Shown here piece after piece: positions 48,001 through 54,000 of a DNA stretch of 64,000 nt. This DNA comes from a virus (lineage: Duplodnaviria > Heunggongvirae > Uroviricota > Caudoviricetes), in IMG/VR virus record IMGVR_UViG_2721755660_000001; one strand, 5' to 3'. Made by a program: the position numbers. How positions within the stretch are numbered: position 1 is the first letter of the stretch; each line of letters opens with the position of its first letter.

Positions 48001-51000
48001 TAGAGATAGACAGTAGCCTGATGGTTGTGGATTTCCCCCCGAAGCCGCTGAATTTTAAAGCGACAGGTGGATTTGGCTCGGTTCTCCTTGAGTGGGATAT
48101 GCCCAATTATCGAGGTCATTCACTGACTGAAGTCTGGCGGGGTACGGAAGACGACCTTGCTGATGCCGTGCTGGTTGCCACCACACCGGGGCAGGTTTAC
48201 GGCGATCCGGTTGACCCGGGATGGTCGGGATTTTACTGGATCAGGTTTGTGAATGCTGCTGGCGTTAAAGGACCGTGGCATGCTGTCGGTGGTGTTGCTG
48301 CACAGACACAAATTTCTGTTCAGGCGCTGATTGACCAGATCAAGGAAGAAGCGGCGAATTCTCCTGTTGTGGAGGAGTTACGGCAGGAAATTAAGGATGC
48401 CGAAGGGCGGGCAGTACAGGAAGCTGGCGTGCAGACCACTGAGGTTGTGGGTAATCTCAGGGAGGAGACATTAAAAACGATTGGTGGCGTGGAAACCCGC
48501 ATAACCGATATGGACTCATCAACAAGTGAATCGCTAAATGAAGTTAATGAGCGAATCACTAAACTGGATGAAGGAGGCAGTAAAGCTTTCCTGTCCATGT
48601 GGTCAAAGAAAGCCGGAGCTGATGGGGTGACAGCCGGAATCGGCATTGTTGCCGGAAAAGACAGCAGCGGAGGTGCGGTAAGTCAGGTGGCAATATCCGC
48701 GTCGCAGTTGTTTGTCTTTGACCCGAACGATCCTGATAACACGGCCTATCCGTTTGCAGTTTCTGGCGGAAAAGTCGTGATTACTAAAGCGATGATTTCT
48801 GACGCGGTGATTGAAACGCTTGTATCGCAGAAAATTGTCGCGGATGAAGTAAAGGCCGGGGTAAGTATCACCTCGCCGGTGATTCGCAGTGCTGTTATTC
48901 AGAACGGGAACTTTCAGGTTGATTCTCAGGGTAATCTGAATATTGGTGGCCTTTTTAGTGTTACTTCTCAGGGGCAACTGACCATTCGTTACTCTAATCA
49001 GAATGTGGGGCTGGTGATCCGCAATGATAAAATTGAAGTTTATGATGAAAACGGAAGACTGGCTGTCCGAATCGGAAGATTGAGCTGAACGGGAGGCTGA
49101 TATTGGCTGCATTCGGTTTTTCAATTTATGACAAAAATAATGTTGATGTGACAGGCGTGCTTACCCCCATATTTTACCTGGACAGGTTTACGGCGGAGTC
49201 TGGATCAAAAACGTATACGAATAAACCTGAAGGGAAAACATTGCAGGCAGTCTGTTCATTATTTCCGTGGAATAATGTGTTTGCGGACCGGAAAGTACCG
49301 AAGATAACCATTAATGGCAATACGGTGACGTGGTCTAATCTTGAGCAGGGAATGGGGTCATATATTTATACATTCTGGGGGTGAGTTGTATGTATGGTTT
49401 AAGTATTACGAAACCAGATGGCAGTTTGTGGATCAGTCCGGGGTTTACACCTCAATGCCTGATCAATAAAGGCACCATACCGGCGACTGAAAAGGCTTTT
49501 TTTAAAACATCAATTCCATCTGATAAAAGTTGTTTTTTCTTTATCAGAACAGAGAAGAAGGCTGATGTCATGTACACGCATGAACAGATAGATGGATATC
49601 ATGCCCTGAGGCTTCATGTAATTGTCAAGGGAACGAATCCTGGTGTTACGACTGTTTATGCTTTCGCGAATATGGTTACTCCACCTTCTGAGTATGGTAT
49701 CGCCATGTATAACCATGACGGTGAGATGATTTATCATGGCGAAATGATGCTGTTGGACGCAAAGTTAATACCTGTTGATATCAAGTTTGAGAAGGACCTT
49801 GGATATCCATGCGCAATTATGCCTGCACTGGTTGGGTATTATAACTGGCAGCGTACACCTTATGACCGCCCGATTTACACCACGTCTACTGGTGCTACAG
49901 GAAATAAAATATATTCCTGTGAGCATTATTCCGGTGGTGCAACATGGGATATTCGAAAGCCTTATATAGATAAGGTTTTGGTTATTAATTCATCAATATA
50001 TGACTGATGTTATGGTTGACGTGAATATTAAATAATGGAATTTATTTTATCTTAGATAATACAGGGTTATTTTAGTATAGGAAAATTCTAAAAATGAAGC
50101 ATTCCAGTATTTTTTTGTGTGCACAACTCTTGTGATGTGTTCTCTGACTGCGCCAGTCTATGCAGAGATGGGGAACAGTACCGTTTCTCTCGGATTTGCT
50201 CATCTTCAGCTCTCTGGACTGAATCATTTTGTTAAGGATTTAAGTCTTCATAATCTTGATACCTTTAACAACTTTGTAAATAAAAACTATTTCAACTCAT
50301 TTGGTGAATATGCAGATGCTTCTGTCAGAGGGCATGACGGCAAAGCCAAAAGCCTTCAGGGGATGAGCATCAAGTACCGTTACGAGATAACTGATGAGCT
50401 GGGGGTTATAACCTCTTTTACATGGGTGCGCTCCATGACTAATGCGCAGGCATTTATTGATGTTAAGCCCGCAGATCAAAACCCCGCAGCTTCAGGAAGA
50501 ACAGATATCAGGGCGAATTACTGGAGTTTGTTGGCTGGCCCTTCGTGGCGGTTTAACGAATACCTCAGTGTGTATGCAATGGCTGGTATGGGGGTTGCAA
50601 AAGTCACCACTGATTTAAAAATTAACGACAATCTTAATCATGGCGCTGGTAGCTTTTCTGAAAGCAACAGTACCAAAAAAACAGCACTTGCATGGGCCGC
50701 GGGTGCACAATTTAACCTGAATGAAAGTGTTGCTATGGATGTCGCGTATGAAAGCTCTGGCTCTGGTGACTGGCGCACAAGCGGGGTTACTGTTGGTATT
50801 GGTCTGAAATTCTGAGCAATACCCGGCAATATGTCATAACCCGCTGTGATGGCGGGTTTTTTGTTGCCCGTTCAGGGTAAAGATCGTAGATTATGCGCGG
50901 GTGCCTTTCGGCTGATGGCTGGAGGGTGAACCTGAAGGCCTGATGTGGAAAGGCCCCGAGTCAAACATTTGTTTAACCCGAGGCCCTAACACTTCGTACC

Positions 51001-54000
51001 TTGACAAGTAGAAGGTTAGCGCCTCTCCACTCTGGAGGCAAGCGCTATGTCGCAAAAATCGCTTATCACCGTCACAATTTGTATGACGGTAATCTTCACC
51101 ATCTGGATGTTACACGGTTCGCTGTGTGAGTTCCGGCTGAATTTGTGGGGGGCGGAGTTTGCGGCGTTCTTACAGTGTAAGCAGTAGGAAAACCGCGACG
51201 GGGACGAAAGTCCCCGTCAACTGGTTGTTGAGGTTCAGCCGATATGGCACCCGTTTCAGGTGAGAGAATGGACGACAAAATTCTCCGGTATATGAAGCGT
51301 GTTGTGAGAAATTCCCGCAACCCTGAGTTTATGAATGAAGTTAAAGACGCCTGCCTTAAAAAGCAGGCGTTTTGCTTTGAAGCCCCTGATGGTTTTCTGG
51401 TGCTGCGTTCTGTGCTCCGTGACGATGGCATCCCTTATGTTCTGGTGTTGCTGGGTGTGTGTACGGGGAGTAACAGCGTTGAGCGTTATCTGCCGGAGGT
51501 GAGGACATTAACCCGTCTGGCTGGCGGACGCTGGGCTGAATTCCACACGGCAAGGCGAGGATTTATCCGGCTGGGAAAACGACTGGGCTTTGAGCGAATG
51601 CCGGATGATGAGGATGGCTTCATGGTGTTCAGGATAGCGGTCTGACGGCCACTGTATTCATCATCGTGTGTAAACCAACATTGCACTTCACATTCTGACC
51701 CTGCCCCGGCAGGGTTTTTTGTTATCTGAGGAGACATTATGGGCGGAAGTAAAGGCGGTGGTGATACCGAAGTAAAACCAACAGCAGCGCAAATAGCACA
51801 GGAAGAGGTGGCATGGAAAGGGTGGCAGGATTACAAAAATATCCTCCGTCCGGCAGAAGATAACTTCATGGAAAAGGTCGATGACCTTAACAGTGAACAG
51901 CAGTACGAAAATATCGCTGGCACAACAAATCTTGGTTATCAGAAACAGTTTGGTGAAGCGCGAAGGGAGCTGGCGGGTAATCTTGCTCAGTCCGGCGTTG
52001 ACCCATCCAGTGGTCGTTTTAATGCGGTAATGGATGCAAATCAAAGCGACCAGGTGACCGGGCAGATTGACACAACCACACGGGGGCAGGTGTCGCAGGC
52101 AGATAAATATATTGCCGGGCTACAGGATGTTGCCGCGCTCGGTTCCGGTCAGAAGGCGGATGCGTTACAGAGTTTTAACTCTCTGGCAGACAGCAGTCTG
52201 GCAAAAGCCAAATCAGATGCACAGGCGGCGTTTACGAAACAACAGGGGCGCGCCTCTCTTGTTGGCGCTGGTCTTGGCGCGGTTGGGGCTTATGCAATGC
52301 ATAAGGCTGGCGGTAGCGGAAGTGGAGGCTCTAAAACGCCAGGTACCGGCGCTAACGCTATTCAGAATCGGGCTCAGAACTGGAGGCTGTAATTATGGAG
52401 TATGGCAAATACGAAACTCTCGCAAGGGCTGGTTATTCAGGCGCTGGCAGGCCATGGGGTGACTGGGAAACCTCTGCCGCGTTGACACGCCAACAATACG
52501 ACGACTGGCGCACCAGATATTTGCCTCGTATAGCAAGGCTGGCTGACCTTGGTGAGAACAACAGTCTGATGAATGCACAGCTTGCCCGGGTGGGCGGCCT
52601 TGCCACTTCCAGTCTCCGTACAGCGCAGATGGCACAGGATAACCAGATGGCGAGATACGGGGTAAACCGCCCGGATAATCCTAACAGTAACACGCTGGGT
52701 TTACGTAATGCTCTGGCAATTGCTGGCGCGAAAAATGGTATCCGTGAAGCAGAGCAGGATCGCCAGATGAACATACTGACGGGTGCTTCTGCACCTGCAA
52801 GACAGCAACTGAGTGTTGGTGGACAACTGGTGTCAGCGTAAGGGGGACATATGGGATACGGTTTACTGGATATTGCGAATCAGTCGCGGCGTGAGGCATT
52901 ACAGGGAATAAGTGATGCCGACAGACGACGTGAAGAAATTGAGGCTGCGAACAAGCAGATGGCGGCGCAACAGAAAGCGCAGCACAAGCAGAATATCGGT
53001 ACGGGAATCGGTACGGGGGCGGCTATTGGCGCATCCGTTGGTGGTCCTGTTGGCGCTGTTGCTGGTGCAGTAATTGGCGGCATTGCTGGTTCTTTGTTTT
53101 AAGGAGTAGTGAATGAGCGGATTTGCACAGGGGTTACTTGCAGGATTCAGCACCGTTGACCAGGCAATGACCCGTCGTAAGGAGCTTGGTTTGCGAGAAG
53201 CACAGCTTGCTCAGCAACAGAAAAATAACGAGCGCGATTTTGAATTTGCGCAGTCTCAGTTTGAACATAATAAAGACGTTGATCAGCGGAACTTTGATTA
53301 CAGAGCCAAAGTTGATGACCGCAATTACGCACTGCAGGAAAGGGAGTTTAACGCCAATCAGAATTACCGGAATGCGTCACTGGGTATGGAGCAGCAGCGA
53401 CTCCAGTTGCAGAAATACAACCAGCGACGGCTTGAGTATAACGATATGCTGGCGCGCGATCAGCCTGTGATGGCTGCGCTTGGAAAGGCTGTGGATGCTG
53501 GTGATCGGGATGCGGCAATGCATCTTTACGGGCAGTTGTCAGAGGGTAATCCGCTGAGGCTGATGGCGAATGATGGCTATGCTGCGAAAGCGGGGCAGGC
53601 CGTGAACAACCTGCAAAAAATCTTTGATGACAAGCCGGACAGGGCGATCGCTTCACTCAATACCCCGGAAAGTCTTGATGCGCTTTCCGGCGTGTTTGCC
53701 CCGGAACTGCAACAGCGTATTGGCATGCCCGATTCAACCGGGAAAAAGACAATAAAAGAGGCCAGGATTGGCAGTATCGTACCGGCACAGCAGGAAGGGT
53801 ACGTACTTATCGGCCTTGATCTCACATACAGCGATGGCTCCACCGCACATAAACCCGTTACGGAATACGGCAGCGCACATCCTGATGATCAAACTGTGCT
53901 GGCGGTGCCTGTTGATAAGGCTGTCGCTCTTGTCAGGGATCGCAGTAAATTCGCGGAAATTTCGAAAAATTACGGTTATTTCAAGCCGAAGCAGCAGGGA

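What the first reader, a model, noticed from the sequence alone, without database searches (positions are those of the whole stretch)
50880..51230. Second Hok-family (PndA/SrnB-like) toxin locus in the tail-distal region
The 46-codon ORF at 51047..51187 has the PndA pattern (transmembrane helix, SLCE, AAFL.CK) and is followed by a GC hairpin of the kind found in hok mRNA 3' ends. Two unrelated Hok-family loci in one prophage is notable; this one sits next to lom in a moron position.
Basis: partly seen in the sequence, partly recalled or inferred. Interest (0 to 1): 0.5.

Follow-up and report, generated by a model that had tools for sequence, protein, structure and literature searches.

The report
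Second hok/sok-type toxin cassette beside lom
The small gene next to lom is a real, complete Hok-family membrane-toxin cassette, but public databases already annotate it in many Shiga-toxin phages, so it is ordinary apart from lacking the usual "mok" leader reading frame.

Summary
Window 51047..51187 (+) encodes a 46-aa Hok/Gef peptide (Pfam 33.2 bits, cutoff 22) between lom and the L0129-like gene. It sits in a sharply bounded ~390-bp cassette (50864..51252). The cassette has its own promoter, a 354-nt structured mRNA whose 5' end (GGGUGCC) pairs with its 3' end (GGCACCC) with covariation support, a hairpin that sequesters the SD, the conserved 3' GC hairpin, and a conserved antisense promoter for a Sok-like RNA.

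The peptide belongs to the HokA/PndA branch: 45% identity to HokA, 35% to PndA over the N-terminal half only. The two hok loci in the window are related, not unrelated. The gene is already annotated: RefSeq WP_000078907.1, and "small toxic polypeptide" in Stx2a_F723. The identical ORF is also present, unannotated, in 933W and Sakai Sp5 alongside hokW.

Two points are worth keeping:
- This subfamily has no conserved mok reading frame in 22 loci.
- The window's intact ORF is one G away from the frameshifted allele carried by all 57 nearest relatives (O121:H19). Other homopolymers are also one base shorter in this window, so the intact ORF may be an assembly artefact.

Expression, toxicity and antisense control remain untested.

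The parts
50864..50892 (+). Predicted hok promoter: -35 TTGCCC (50864..50869), 17-nt spacer, -10 TAGATT (50887..50892). It lies immediately after the lom terminator hairpin (50838..50858).
   Evidence: Read from the sequence. The same -35/17-18 nt/-10 arrangement (TAGATT, TAGAAT or TAGAGT) precedes GGGTGCC in homologous loci. It falls below the threshold of the generic promoter scan. Lom terminator.
50899..51252 (+). Predicted full-length hok-type mRNA (354 nt), from the 5' GGGUGCC to the 3' GGCACCC.
   Evidence: MFE -161 kcal/mol, z = -7.65 against shuffles. Rfam sok/hok-leader model matches 50899..51058 full length at 39.8 bits, E=2e-7, below the gathering score of 59. The block shared at ~83% with P2-like prophage cassettes spans 50887..51252. 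RNAalifold and pair counts on 16 loci give 97% of cells paired, against ~40% when partners are slid.
50899..50915 (+). tac-like 5' element: GGGUGCC (50899..50905) plus UCGG (50908..50911, within CGGCUGA).
   Evidence: It pairs with the 3' end in the full-length fold. After removal of the last ~30 nt it pairs instead with GAAAGGCCCC (50948..50957). Alignment columns 1-7 are invariant. Columns 10-13 covary fully with columns 364-367.
51239..51252 (+). fbi-like 3' fold-back element: CCGA (51239..51242) and GGCACCC (51246..51252). It overlaps the ATG (51244) that PGAP uses for the downstream gene.
   Evidence: Seven invariant pairs plus four pairs with compensatory changes in 8 of 16 sequences (UA/CG, CG/GC, GC/AU). 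Homology with P2-like cassettes ends here.
50940..51006 (-). Predicted Sok-like antisense RNA: start ~51006, 17-bp hairpin 50987..50950, 3' end uncertain (weak U tract UUUCC).
   Evidence: Folds at -37.1 kcal/mol, z = -6.5. It is complementary to the leader 41-107 nt upstream of the hok AUG. It has no extended complementarity to the hokW leader, and SokW has none to this leader. Expression was not tested.
51013..51041 (-). Predicted antisense (sok-like) promoter: -35 TTGCCT (51041..51036), 17-nt spacer, -10 TAACCT (51018..51013).
   Evidence: Present in all 22 loci examined as TTGCTC/TTGCCT/TTGACT/TTTACT, then 17 nt (18 in two), then TAACCT or TATCCT. The same -10 lies at the equivalent place in the hokW locus, 7 nt before the position corresponding to the annotated 933W SokW 5' end.
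51017..51047 (+). Hairpin that sequesters the hok Shine-Dalgarno sequence: outer helix UAGCGC/GCGCUA; inner anti-SD CCUCUCC (51022..51028) against the SD GGAGG (51034..51038).
   Evidence: Local fold -15.4 kcal/mol, comparable to the hokW equivalent at -16.1. The outer helix is 99% paired across 16 loci.
51047..51187 (+). hok-family toxin ORF, 46 aa: MSQKSLITVTICMTVIFTIWMLHGSLCEFRLNLWGAEFAAFLQCKQ.
   Evidence: Pfam HOK_GEF 33.2 bits, PHROG 251, best NCBIfam model HokA. Identical in translation to the CDS annotated WP_000078907.1 in O157:H7 86-24. The same ORF is in 933W and Sakai Sp5. dN/dS 0.24.
51147..51152 (+). G6 homopolymer inside the ORF. The nearest relatives have G7, which frameshifts the gene.
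   Evidence: Checked directly in O121 RM8352 and phage LC616032. It is the only difference from LC616032 in 967 bp. 9 O121:H19 genomes and 48 Stx2a phage records match at >=99%, and every listed row spans 368 bases against a 367-base query.
51047..51166 (+). Long-range helix that sequesters the hok AUG and first codons (51047..51061) against GCGGAGUUUGCGGCG (51152..51166, the codons for AEFAA).
   Evidence: 13 pairs, 100% paired in 16 loci, with only one-sided (G-U) changes. This explains the invariance of both segments at nucleotide level.
51197..51218 (+).
   Evidence: 9 pairs, 5 with compensatory changes, 98.6% paired. Read on the minus strand it also scores as terminator-like.
51001..51129 (+). 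UUG-initiated 42-codon ORF in the frame homologous to mokW. It has no SD and is not conserved.
   Evidence: Present only in the window and strain G6/7 among 22 loci. The 933W/Sp5-type allele has no start codon there.

Best explanation
This is a self-contained hok/sok-type type I toxin-antitoxin cassette of the HokA/PndA branch. It is inserted as a moron between the lom terminator and the L0129-like gene of a short-tailed Stx prophage.

Shown by sequence and comparison:
- A promoter-like site (TTGCCC-17-TAGATT) precedes a ~354-nt mRNA.
- The mRNA's 5' end pairs with its 3' end, in the manner of tac and fbi.
- The hok SD and AUG are buried in conserved helices.
- The opposite strand carries a conserved promoter-like site that would give a ~65-nt hairpin RNA, perfectly complementary to the leader.

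Inferred from the plasmid R1 hok/sok paradigm:
- The full-length mRNA is stable but translationally inert.
- Slow 3' trimming removes the fold-back element, and the 5' end then re-pairs with GAAAGGCCCC.
- The antisense RNA binds the remodelled leader, and RNase III destroys the duplex.
- When the short-lived antisense RNA disappears, the 46-aa peptide is made, inserts into the inner membrane and depolarises the cell. This could happen on loss of the prophage, after transcription shut-off, or after SOS induction as shown for hokW.

This subfamily differs from R1 and hokW in having no conserved mok reading frame. The antisense RNA therefore cannot act by blocking mok translation. It most likely acts through mRNA decay or by occluding a ribosome standby region upstream of the structured SD.

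The biological role is probably prophage stabilisation or help with lysis, as reported for hokW.
For: - Family membership.
- The leader matches the Rfam hok/sok model over its full length at E=2e-7.
- The mRNA folds far better than shuffles, z=-7.65, with 5'-3' closure. It refolds when the 3' end is removed.
- On 16 loci, 80 consensus pairs are 97% paired. 20 pairs have double-sided changes, against 13.0 +/- 1.7 in shuffles and 1-10 when partners are slid. The tac/fbi helix covaries fully.
- The antisense promoter is conserved in 22 of 22 loci. The antisense hairpin has z=-6.5.
- The peptide is under purifying selection, dN/dS 0.24.
- The cassette has sharp boundaries and recurs at prophage ends: after ogr in P2-like prophages, after tail-fibre genes, and in tandem in Salmonella.
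- The sister locus hokW-sokW of Sp5 is an experimentally proven type I TA system (PMC8621323).
Against: - There is no expression, toxicity or antisense data for this locus. None was found in 7 literature searches.
- The Rfam score is below the gathering threshold (39.8 against 59).
- There is no conserved mok-like uORF, although the SD hairpin is as stable as in hokW. How hok would ever be translated is therefore unexplained.
- The antisense -10 (TAACCT) and its U tract are weak by consensus. The generic promoter scan finds neither promoter.
- The nearest relatives carry a frameshift. The intact ORF in this window may be a homopolymer under-call.
Confidence: 0.8

Rival explanations
1. The locus is an inactive relic. 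It descends from a hok/sok locus, but without mok and with SD and AUG locked in structure the peptide is never made. In this phage lineage the gene is in fact a frameshifted pseudogene, and the intact ORF in the window is an assembly artefact.
For: - No conserved mok. The SD hairpin is -15.4 kcal/mol.
- The O121:H19 genomes and Stx2a phage records most similar to this block (9 and 48 at >=99%) have G7 and a frameshift. PGAP flags the gene as 'frameshifted'.
- All four isolated 1-nt indels between the window and LC616032 are homopolymer contractions in the window. One of them breaks the lom start.
- K-12 hokA is known to be inactivated by IS150.
Against: - dN/dS is 0.24, and both Cys and the C-terminal AEFAAFLQCK motif are invariant across Escherichia, Salmonella and Citrobacter.
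- All RNA elements and both promoters are kept, with compensatory changes.
- The 933W, Sp5, 86-24 and F723 alleles have GGGGAG, with no long run, and an intact ORF.
- Such conservation is not expected of a dead locus.
Confidence: 0.15
2. The peptide serves mainly as a late-lysis accessory and not as an addiction module. It would be made from read-through late (pR') transcripts, which run in the same direction through lom and the cassette. It would act like a holin helper during induction, as reported for HokW.
For: - The cassette is co-oriented with the tail, lom and L0129 genes.
- HokW of Sp5 speeds lysis and doubles phage release after mitomycin C (PMC8621323).
- Sp5 keeps this second locus, which was not deleted in that study.
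Against: - The same cassette sits in P2-like and other prophages at the prophage end or in other contexts, with its own promoter.
- A structured mRNA with a fold-back element and an antisense promoter is typical of post-segregational control.
- No data exist on read-through expression.
Confidence: 0.3
3. The ORF is a chance open reading frame in an intergenic spacer, and the hairpin is an ordinary terminator.
For: - Forty-odd-codon ORFs are common: 68 ORFs of >=20 aa overlap 49000..53000.
- The ORF is unannotated in the original 933W and Sakai records.
Against: - Significant Pfam, PHROG and NCBIfam hits.
- 56 homologues and purifying selection.
- The hairpin lacks a U tract on the + strand and lies inside a conserved, covarying mRNA structure.
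Confidence: 0.01

Closest known systems
hokW-mokW-sokW of phage 933W / Sakai prophage Sp5 (Takada et al. 2021, PMC8621323), present in this window at 23652..23976
   Same: It lies in the same phage and belongs to the same Pfam and PHROG family. It has the same architecture: a TAGAxT -10, a 5' GGGUGC, a GAAAGCCCC-type box, an antisense -10 TAACCT overlapping AGGUUAG, and an SD hairpin of similar stability.
   Different: - The peptides share only 24% identity over 29 aa.
- The leaders are too diverged for antisense cross-pairing.
- hokW has a mok frame with an AUG under the Sok 5' end; this locus has none that is conserved.
- hokW passes the Rfam gathering score and this locus does not.
- hokW is experimentally characterised and this locus is not.
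hokA (mokA/sokA) of E. coli K-12
   Same: It is the closest curated family: NCBIfam HokA is the top model. Identity is 45% over 47 aa, including MxQK, WM..DSLCE and AAFLxCK with the C-terminal Cys.
   Different: - The score is far below the HokA equivalog cutoff (38 against 89).
- The peptide is 46 aa, against 50 aa for HokA.
- Nucleotide similarity is confined to ~56 nt of coding sequence at 70%.
- K-12 hokA is chromosomal and disrupted by IS150; this cassette is prophage-borne and intact.
pndA (pnd system of IncI/IncB plasmids) and hok/sok of plasmid R1 (parB)
   Same: All use a Hok-family single-pass membrane toxin. The N-terminal half resembles PndA (35% identity over 34 aa). The tac/fbi fold-back logic and the position of the antisense promoter follow the R1 paradigm (established knowledge from Gerdes and co-workers; structure shown).
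   Different: - The C-terminal half is unlike PndA.
- The peptide matches only 36 of 72,556 plasmids, whereas PndA matches more than 5000.
- There is no mok/pndB-type overlapping frame.
- The locus is prophage-borne, not plasmid-borne.
tisB/istR-1 (ribosome standby control)
   Same: This is a possible mechanistic analogy only. A structured toxin RBS is combined with an antisense RNA that binds well upstream of it: here 41-107 nt upstream of the AUG.
   Different: There is no sequence or family relationship. Standby binding is purely an inference here and was not tested.

Membership tests
Hok/Gef toxin family (Pfam PF01848) | The profile HMM match is above the curated gathering score. | tested here: met
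   33.2 bits against a cutoff of 22, E=4e-8, residues 8-44. PHROG 251 at E=2.8e-24.
Hok/Gef toxin family (Pfam PF01848) | A peptide of ~50 aa with an N-terminal hydrophobic helix and a short polar tail carrying the conserved Cys (SLCE). | tested here: met
   46 aa, hydrophobic at residues 6-23. C27 (SLCE) and C44 are invariant in 31 homologues.
Hok/Gef toxin family (Pfam PF01848) | The peptide kills or arrests cells when expressed, by depolarising the membrane. | not testable with these tools
   No experiment on this peptide was found.
hok/sok-type type I TA locus (R1 parB paradigm) | The leader RNA matches Rfam RF01794 at the gathering score. | tested here: not met
   39.8 bits against a gathering score of 59. 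The match covers the full model (1-157) at E=2e-7 in a local search. The locus is absent from the gathering-threshold scan.
hok/sok-type type I TA locus (R1 parB paradigm) | Long-range pairing of the mRNA 5' end (tac) with the 3' end (fbi). | tested here: met
   7 invariant pairs plus 4 fully compensatory pairs, 100% paired in 16 loci. The pairing is present in the MFE fold.
hok/sok-type type I TA locus (R1 parB paradigm) | An alternative pairing of tac after 3' trimming, which remodels the leader. | tested here: inconclusive
   The fold of the truncated RNA pairs GGG.GCCUUUC with GAAAGGCCCC. This rests on thermodynamic prediction for one sequence only. 3' processing cannot be tested here.
hok/sok-type type I TA locus (R1 parB paradigm) | A cis-encoded antisense RNA (Sok) with its own promoter, complementary to the leader. 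| tested here: inconclusive
   A promoter-like site is conserved in 22 of 22 loci, and the hairpin is stable. Transcription has not been shown, and the generic promoter scan does not call the site.
hok/sok-type type I TA locus (R1 parB paradigm) | An overlapping mok reading frame whose translation is the target of Sok and is coupled to hok. | tested here: not met
   No conserved uORF in any of the three frames in 22 loci. 10 of 22 have no ATG/GTG/TTG-initiated uORF reaching the hok SD. The window has only a non-conserved UUG ORF without an SD.
hok/sok-type type I TA locus (R1 parB paradigm) | The hok SD is sequestered in a hairpin. | tested here: met
   CCUCUCC/GGAGG inside UAGCGC/GCGCUA, -15.4 kcal/mol. 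The outer helix is conserved.
HokA equivalog (NCBIfam NF007290) | The score is above the equivalog cutoff. | tested here: not met
   38.4 bits against 89. Identity to K-12 HokA is 45%.
   Against PndA: 28 bits, 35% identity over residues 1-32 only. Against HokA: 40 bits over the full length. Only 36 plasmids match the peptide, against more than 5000 for PndA. SrnB was not compared directly.

The most novel reading that the evidence does not exclude
The 46-aa 'Hok2' subfamily is a functional, mok-less variant of hok/sok. It occurs in Stx phages, in P2-like prophages and in other prophage-end or chromosomal contexts of Escherichia, Salmonella and Citrobacter. In this reading the antisense RNA controls the toxin without translational coupling, through RNase III-dependent decay or by blocking a ribosome standby region upstream of a locked SD. 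In 933W/Sp5-type phages it would act redundantly with hokW-sokW, so published hokW-sokW deletion phenotypes would underestimate the contribution of Hok toxins to Stx-phage lysis and release.
Probability: 0.3. Interest if true: 0.45.

Novelty: already known. Interest (0 to 1): 0.22.

Why it matters
The practical consequences are modest.
- Reference annotations of 933W and Sakai Sp5 still omit this gene. Rfam's gathering threshold also misses its RNA, so RNA-based screens count one hok/sok locus per Stx phage where there are two.
- The only functional study of Hok in an Stx phage deleted hokW-sokW alone. A second intact cassette in the same prophage could mask or modify that phenotype.
- The lack of a conserved mok frame, with every other hok RNA element conserved, gives a natural test of whether translational coupling is essential to hok regulation.
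- The G-run shows how easily the gene is switched off, or mis-assembled, in the O121:H19 lineage.

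Tried and rejected
- **Rfam at gathering threshold.** It finds only hokW's leader. The second locus appears only in a relaxed local search.
- **Generic promoter scan.** It calls neither promoter. The promoters were assigned by homology to the hokW/R1 layout and by conservation.
- **mok.** The frames +1 and +2 were checked first. 933W's mokW is annotated in frame with hokW, so frame 0 and all uORFs were rechecked. The conclusion did not change.
- **Cross-talk.** SokW against this leader, and the reverse, show no extended complementarity. A shared antitoxin was rejected.
- **HokA orthology.** Rejected. The nucleotide match to a K-12 hokA locus with IS150 removed is limited to ~56 nt, and the score is below the equivalog cutoff.
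- **Literature.** Searches used hokW/sokW, hok+lom+Stx2, hok+933W+lom, accession and locus tags, peptide strings and 'no mok' phrases. Only the hokW paper and genome-wide hok counts turned up: 13-14 hok genes in O157 (PMC1635323, PMC2887945). Nothing on this locus was found. The Fozo 2010 supplements are not held.
- **Window identity.** The window was expected to be an O121:H19 Stx2a phage. It is a mosaic, and only 46018..53359 is near-identical.
- **Structure prediction.** Not attempted for the 46-aa peptide, as it would be uninformative.

Full report
**1. What is there**

The ORF at 51047..51187 (+) encodes MSQKSLITVTICMTVIFTIWMLHGSLCEFRLNLWGAEFAAFLQCKQ.
- It scores 33.2 bits on Pfam HOK_GEF, against a cutoff of 22.
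- It scores 85.8 bits on PHROG 251, 'MokW-like host killing'.
- Its best NCBIfam model is HokA, at 38 bits and below the equivalog cutoff of 89.
- A search of 5.8 billion proteins returns 56 hits. Those that carry a source name are all called Hok/Gef family protein. Most are exactly 46 aa, and the named ones come from Escherichia, Shigella and Salmonella.
- 11 columns are invariant, including both cysteines and the C-terminal FLQCK.
- Median dN/dS over 78 diverged pairs is 0.24.

The gene lies 231 nt downstream of an Ail/Lom gene. It lies just upstream of a PHROG-610 gene of unknown function, the L0129 homologue.

**2. The cassette and its RNA anatomy**

BLAST against 5,426 complete E. coli genomes shows two kinds of match.
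- Stx-phage contexts match across lom, hok and L0129.
- About 1,100 other places match only window 50887..51252, at ~83% identity.

The second kind lie, for example, just after ogr at the end of P2-like prophages. Others lie after tail-fibre or DUF1353 genes, or in tandem pairs in Salmonella. The unit is therefore a mobile ~390-bp cassette with sharp ends.

Within the cassette:
- **Promoter.** TTGCCC (50864..50869), 17 nt, then TAGATT (50887..50892). It precedes a conserved GGGTGCC (50899), and the layout is kept in relatives.
- **Leader.** 50899..51058 matches the Rfam hok/sok leader model end to end at 39.8 bits (E=2e-7). This is below the gathering score of 59, so a standard scan reports only hokW.
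- **Full-length fold.** The 354-nt RNA folds at -161 kcal/mol (z=-7.65). GGGUGCC and UCGG at the 5' end pair with GGCACCC and CCGA at the 3' end.
- **Structure support.** On 16 distinct loci (alignment A2), RNAalifold recovers this closure. The counts are 97.2% of cells paired against 37-42% with slid partners. 20 pairs have double-sided changes, against 13.0 +/- 1.7 in shuffles. The four inner tac/fbi pairs switch completely in 8 of 16 sequences.
- **Other conserved helices.** One is the antisense-target hairpin (GGCCCCG.../...CGAGGCC). One is the SD hairpin (anti-SD CCUCUCC against GGAGG inside UAGCGC/GCGCUA, -15.4 kcal/mol). One is a 13-bp helix joining the AUG and first codons to GCGGAGUUUGCGGCG in the 3' coding region.
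- **Refolding.** Removing the last ~30 nt makes the 5' end pair with GAAAGGCCCC instead. This is the refolding expected of a hok mRNA.

**3. Antisense RNA**

On the minus strand, TTGCCT (51041..51036), 17 nt and TAACCT (51018..51013) form a promoter-like site.
- It is present in all 22 loci examined. The -10 reads TATCCT in six of them.
- Its -35 is the complement of the hok SD region.
- The same -10 sits at the same place in the hokW locus, 7 nt before the position that corresponds to the SokW 5' end annotated in 933W.

The predicted RNA runs from ~51006 leftwards. It has a ~19-nt 5' tail and a 17-bp hairpin (-37.1 kcal/mol, z=-6.5). Its U tract is weak. It shows no extended complementarity to the hokW leader, and SokW shows none to this leader, so the two systems should be insulated from each other. 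Expression of this RNA is inferred, not shown.

**4. What differs from the paradigm**

In 933W, mokW starts with an AUG under the SokW 5' end and reads in frame into hokW. In this subfamily no such frame is conserved.
- Frame 0 is closed by a stop 9 to 39 nt upstream of the AUG. In most loci this is the TAG inside AGGUUAG at -30. No in-frame start codon lies between that stop and the AUG.
- In the mokW-homologous frame, a start codon at the position equivalent to the mokW AUG occurs only in the window and strain G6/7. It is a UUG at 51001 with no SD.
- 10 of 22 loci, including the 933W/Sp5 allele, have no ATG/GTG/TTG uORF reaching the SD region at all.
- Yet the SD hairpin is as stable as that of hokW.

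Control by blocking mok translation therefore cannot apply. Duplex-triggered decay, or occlusion of a standby site, is the most plausible substitute. Both are inferences.

**5. Relationship to known Hoks**

| Compared with | Identity | Score |
|---|---|---|
| K-12 HokA | 45% over 47 aa | 40 bits |
| PndA (sequence found at 100% identity in the plasmid collection) | 35% over the N-terminal 34 aa | 28 bits |
| HokW | 24% over 29 aa | 15 bits |

Only 36 of 72,556 plasmids encode a match to the peptide, against more than 5,000 for PndA. The peptide belongs to the HokA/PndA branch but is a prophage-borne subfamily of its own. SrnB was not compared.

**6. Is it known?**

Yes, at the gene level.
- PGAP annotates the identical protein as WP_000078907.1, 'Hok/Gef family protein', next to lom in O157:H7 86-24 and elsewhere.
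- GenBank phage records call it 'small toxic polypeptide' (Stx2a_F723), 'prophage host toxic membrane protein' (P13771) or 'MokW-like host killing'.
- The cassette is in 198 phage records and 1,527 of 5,426 E. coli genomes.
- Surveys already counted 13-14 hok genes in O157:H7 (PMC1635323, PMC2887945).
- The original 933W and the Sakai reference annotations leave the lom-L0129 gap empty, although the identical ORF is there.
- The only functional paper, on hokW-sokW of Sp5, does not mention this locus.
- I found no publication on its RNA anatomy or on the missing mok.

**7. Caveat on this particular copy**

Window 46018..53359 is 99.5% identical to O121:H19 Stx2a phages.
- Over 967 bp around hok, the only difference from LC616032 is G6 in the window (51147..51152) against G7 in the phage.
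- G7 was seen directly in RM8352 and LC616032, where it gives a frameshifted 43-aa product. PGAP flags the RM8352 gene as 'frameshifted'.
- 9 O121:H19 genomes and 48 Stx2a phage records match at >=99%, and every listed row spans 368 bases against a 367-base query.
- The only other indel in this block is T7 in the window against T8. It destroys the lom start in the window.
- The two other isolated single-base indels against that phage (at 27959 and 62855) are also contractions of homopolymers in the window.

Four out of four contractions is suggestive of homopolymer under-calling in the source assembly. If so, hok here is really the pseudogene and lom is intact. It could equally be genuine variation. 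More distant alleles (933W, Sp5, 86-24, F723) read GGGGAG and are unambiguously intact.

**8. Verdict**

This is an ordinary, already annotated member of the Hok/Gef family, embedded in a well-preserved hok/sok-type cassette. Residual interest lies in the mok-less architecture and in possible redundancy with hokW.

Noticed in passing
window 50106..50112 (lom 5' end) and 51147..51152 (hok): Both runs are one base shorter in the window than in the 99.5%-identical O121:H19 phage block (T7 against T8; G6 against G7). T7 truncates the lom reading frame after 13 codons, leaving a GTG-started ORF at 50117 without the start of the signal peptide. G6 keeps hok intact. Isolated indels at 27959 and 62855 are also contractions in the window. 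This may reflect systematic homopolymer under-calling.
   Followed up: partly
window 24160..24669: A heptanucleotide tandem repeat, GACCAGC x73 at 99% identity, lies at the 5' end of an 856-aa ORF (24151..26721). The ORF looked methyltransferase-like by eye; no domain search was run. A 7-nt period means that copy-number change shifts the reading frame, so this is a candidate phase-variable switch.
   Followed up: partly
window 23764..23976 (hokW/mokW): In this window the mokW frame carries an in-frame UAG at 23815..23817, three nt before the hokW AUG. Mok is therefore a 17-codon uORF. 933W reads CAG there, giving a 70-aa Mok-Hok fusion. The Mok N-terminus also differs (MTYKLRLAS against MLNTCRLAS).
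   Followed up: partly
window 29412..29610; 14260..14347 and 14372..14447 (-): Rfam gathering-score hits: STnc100 (148.7 bits), and C4 antisense RNA (78.9 bits) next to isrK (64.8 bits).
   Followed up: no
window 3400..3474 (-) and 28331..28580 (+): tRNA-Arg(CCT) near the left end probably marks the argW attachment site. A phage tRNA cluster (CAT, Arg-TCG, Arg-TCT) lies at 28.3-28.6 kb.
   Followed up: no
whole window against LC616032: The window is a mosaic relative to the O121:H19 Stx2a phage. Only 46018..53359 is 99.5% identical. 53355..63326 is 97-98%, 32087..43183 is 91.6%, and much of the early region is 83-95% or unmatched.
   Followed up: partly
L020 (1501, 1991), L021 (1501, 1995); L014-L016: Salmonella carries tandem pairs of this hok cassette ~490 bp apart. 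One Salmonella allele (L014-16) has lost the promoter and 5' tac element but keeps the ORF and the fbi.
   Followed up: partly
L006, L007, L009: Assemblies labelled Xanthomonas pisi, a Planococcaceae MAG and Vagococcus sp. contain enterobacterial hok cassettes (100%, 76% and 76% protein identity). L009 has P2-like flanking sequence upstream of the cassette. This is most likely contamination of those assemblies.
   Followed up: no
window 51244..51645: PGAP starts the downstream gene at ATG 51244, inside the hok fold-back element. The PHROG-610 profile aligns only from residue 9 (ATG 51268, preceded by GGUGAGAG). The true start is therefore probably 51268, clear of the cassette.
   Followed up: partly
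window 51196..51219 (-): Read on the minus strand, the hok 3' hairpin followed by CGGTTTTCCT scores as an intrinsic-terminator-like site. No convergent minus-strand gene downstream was seen.
   Followed up: no
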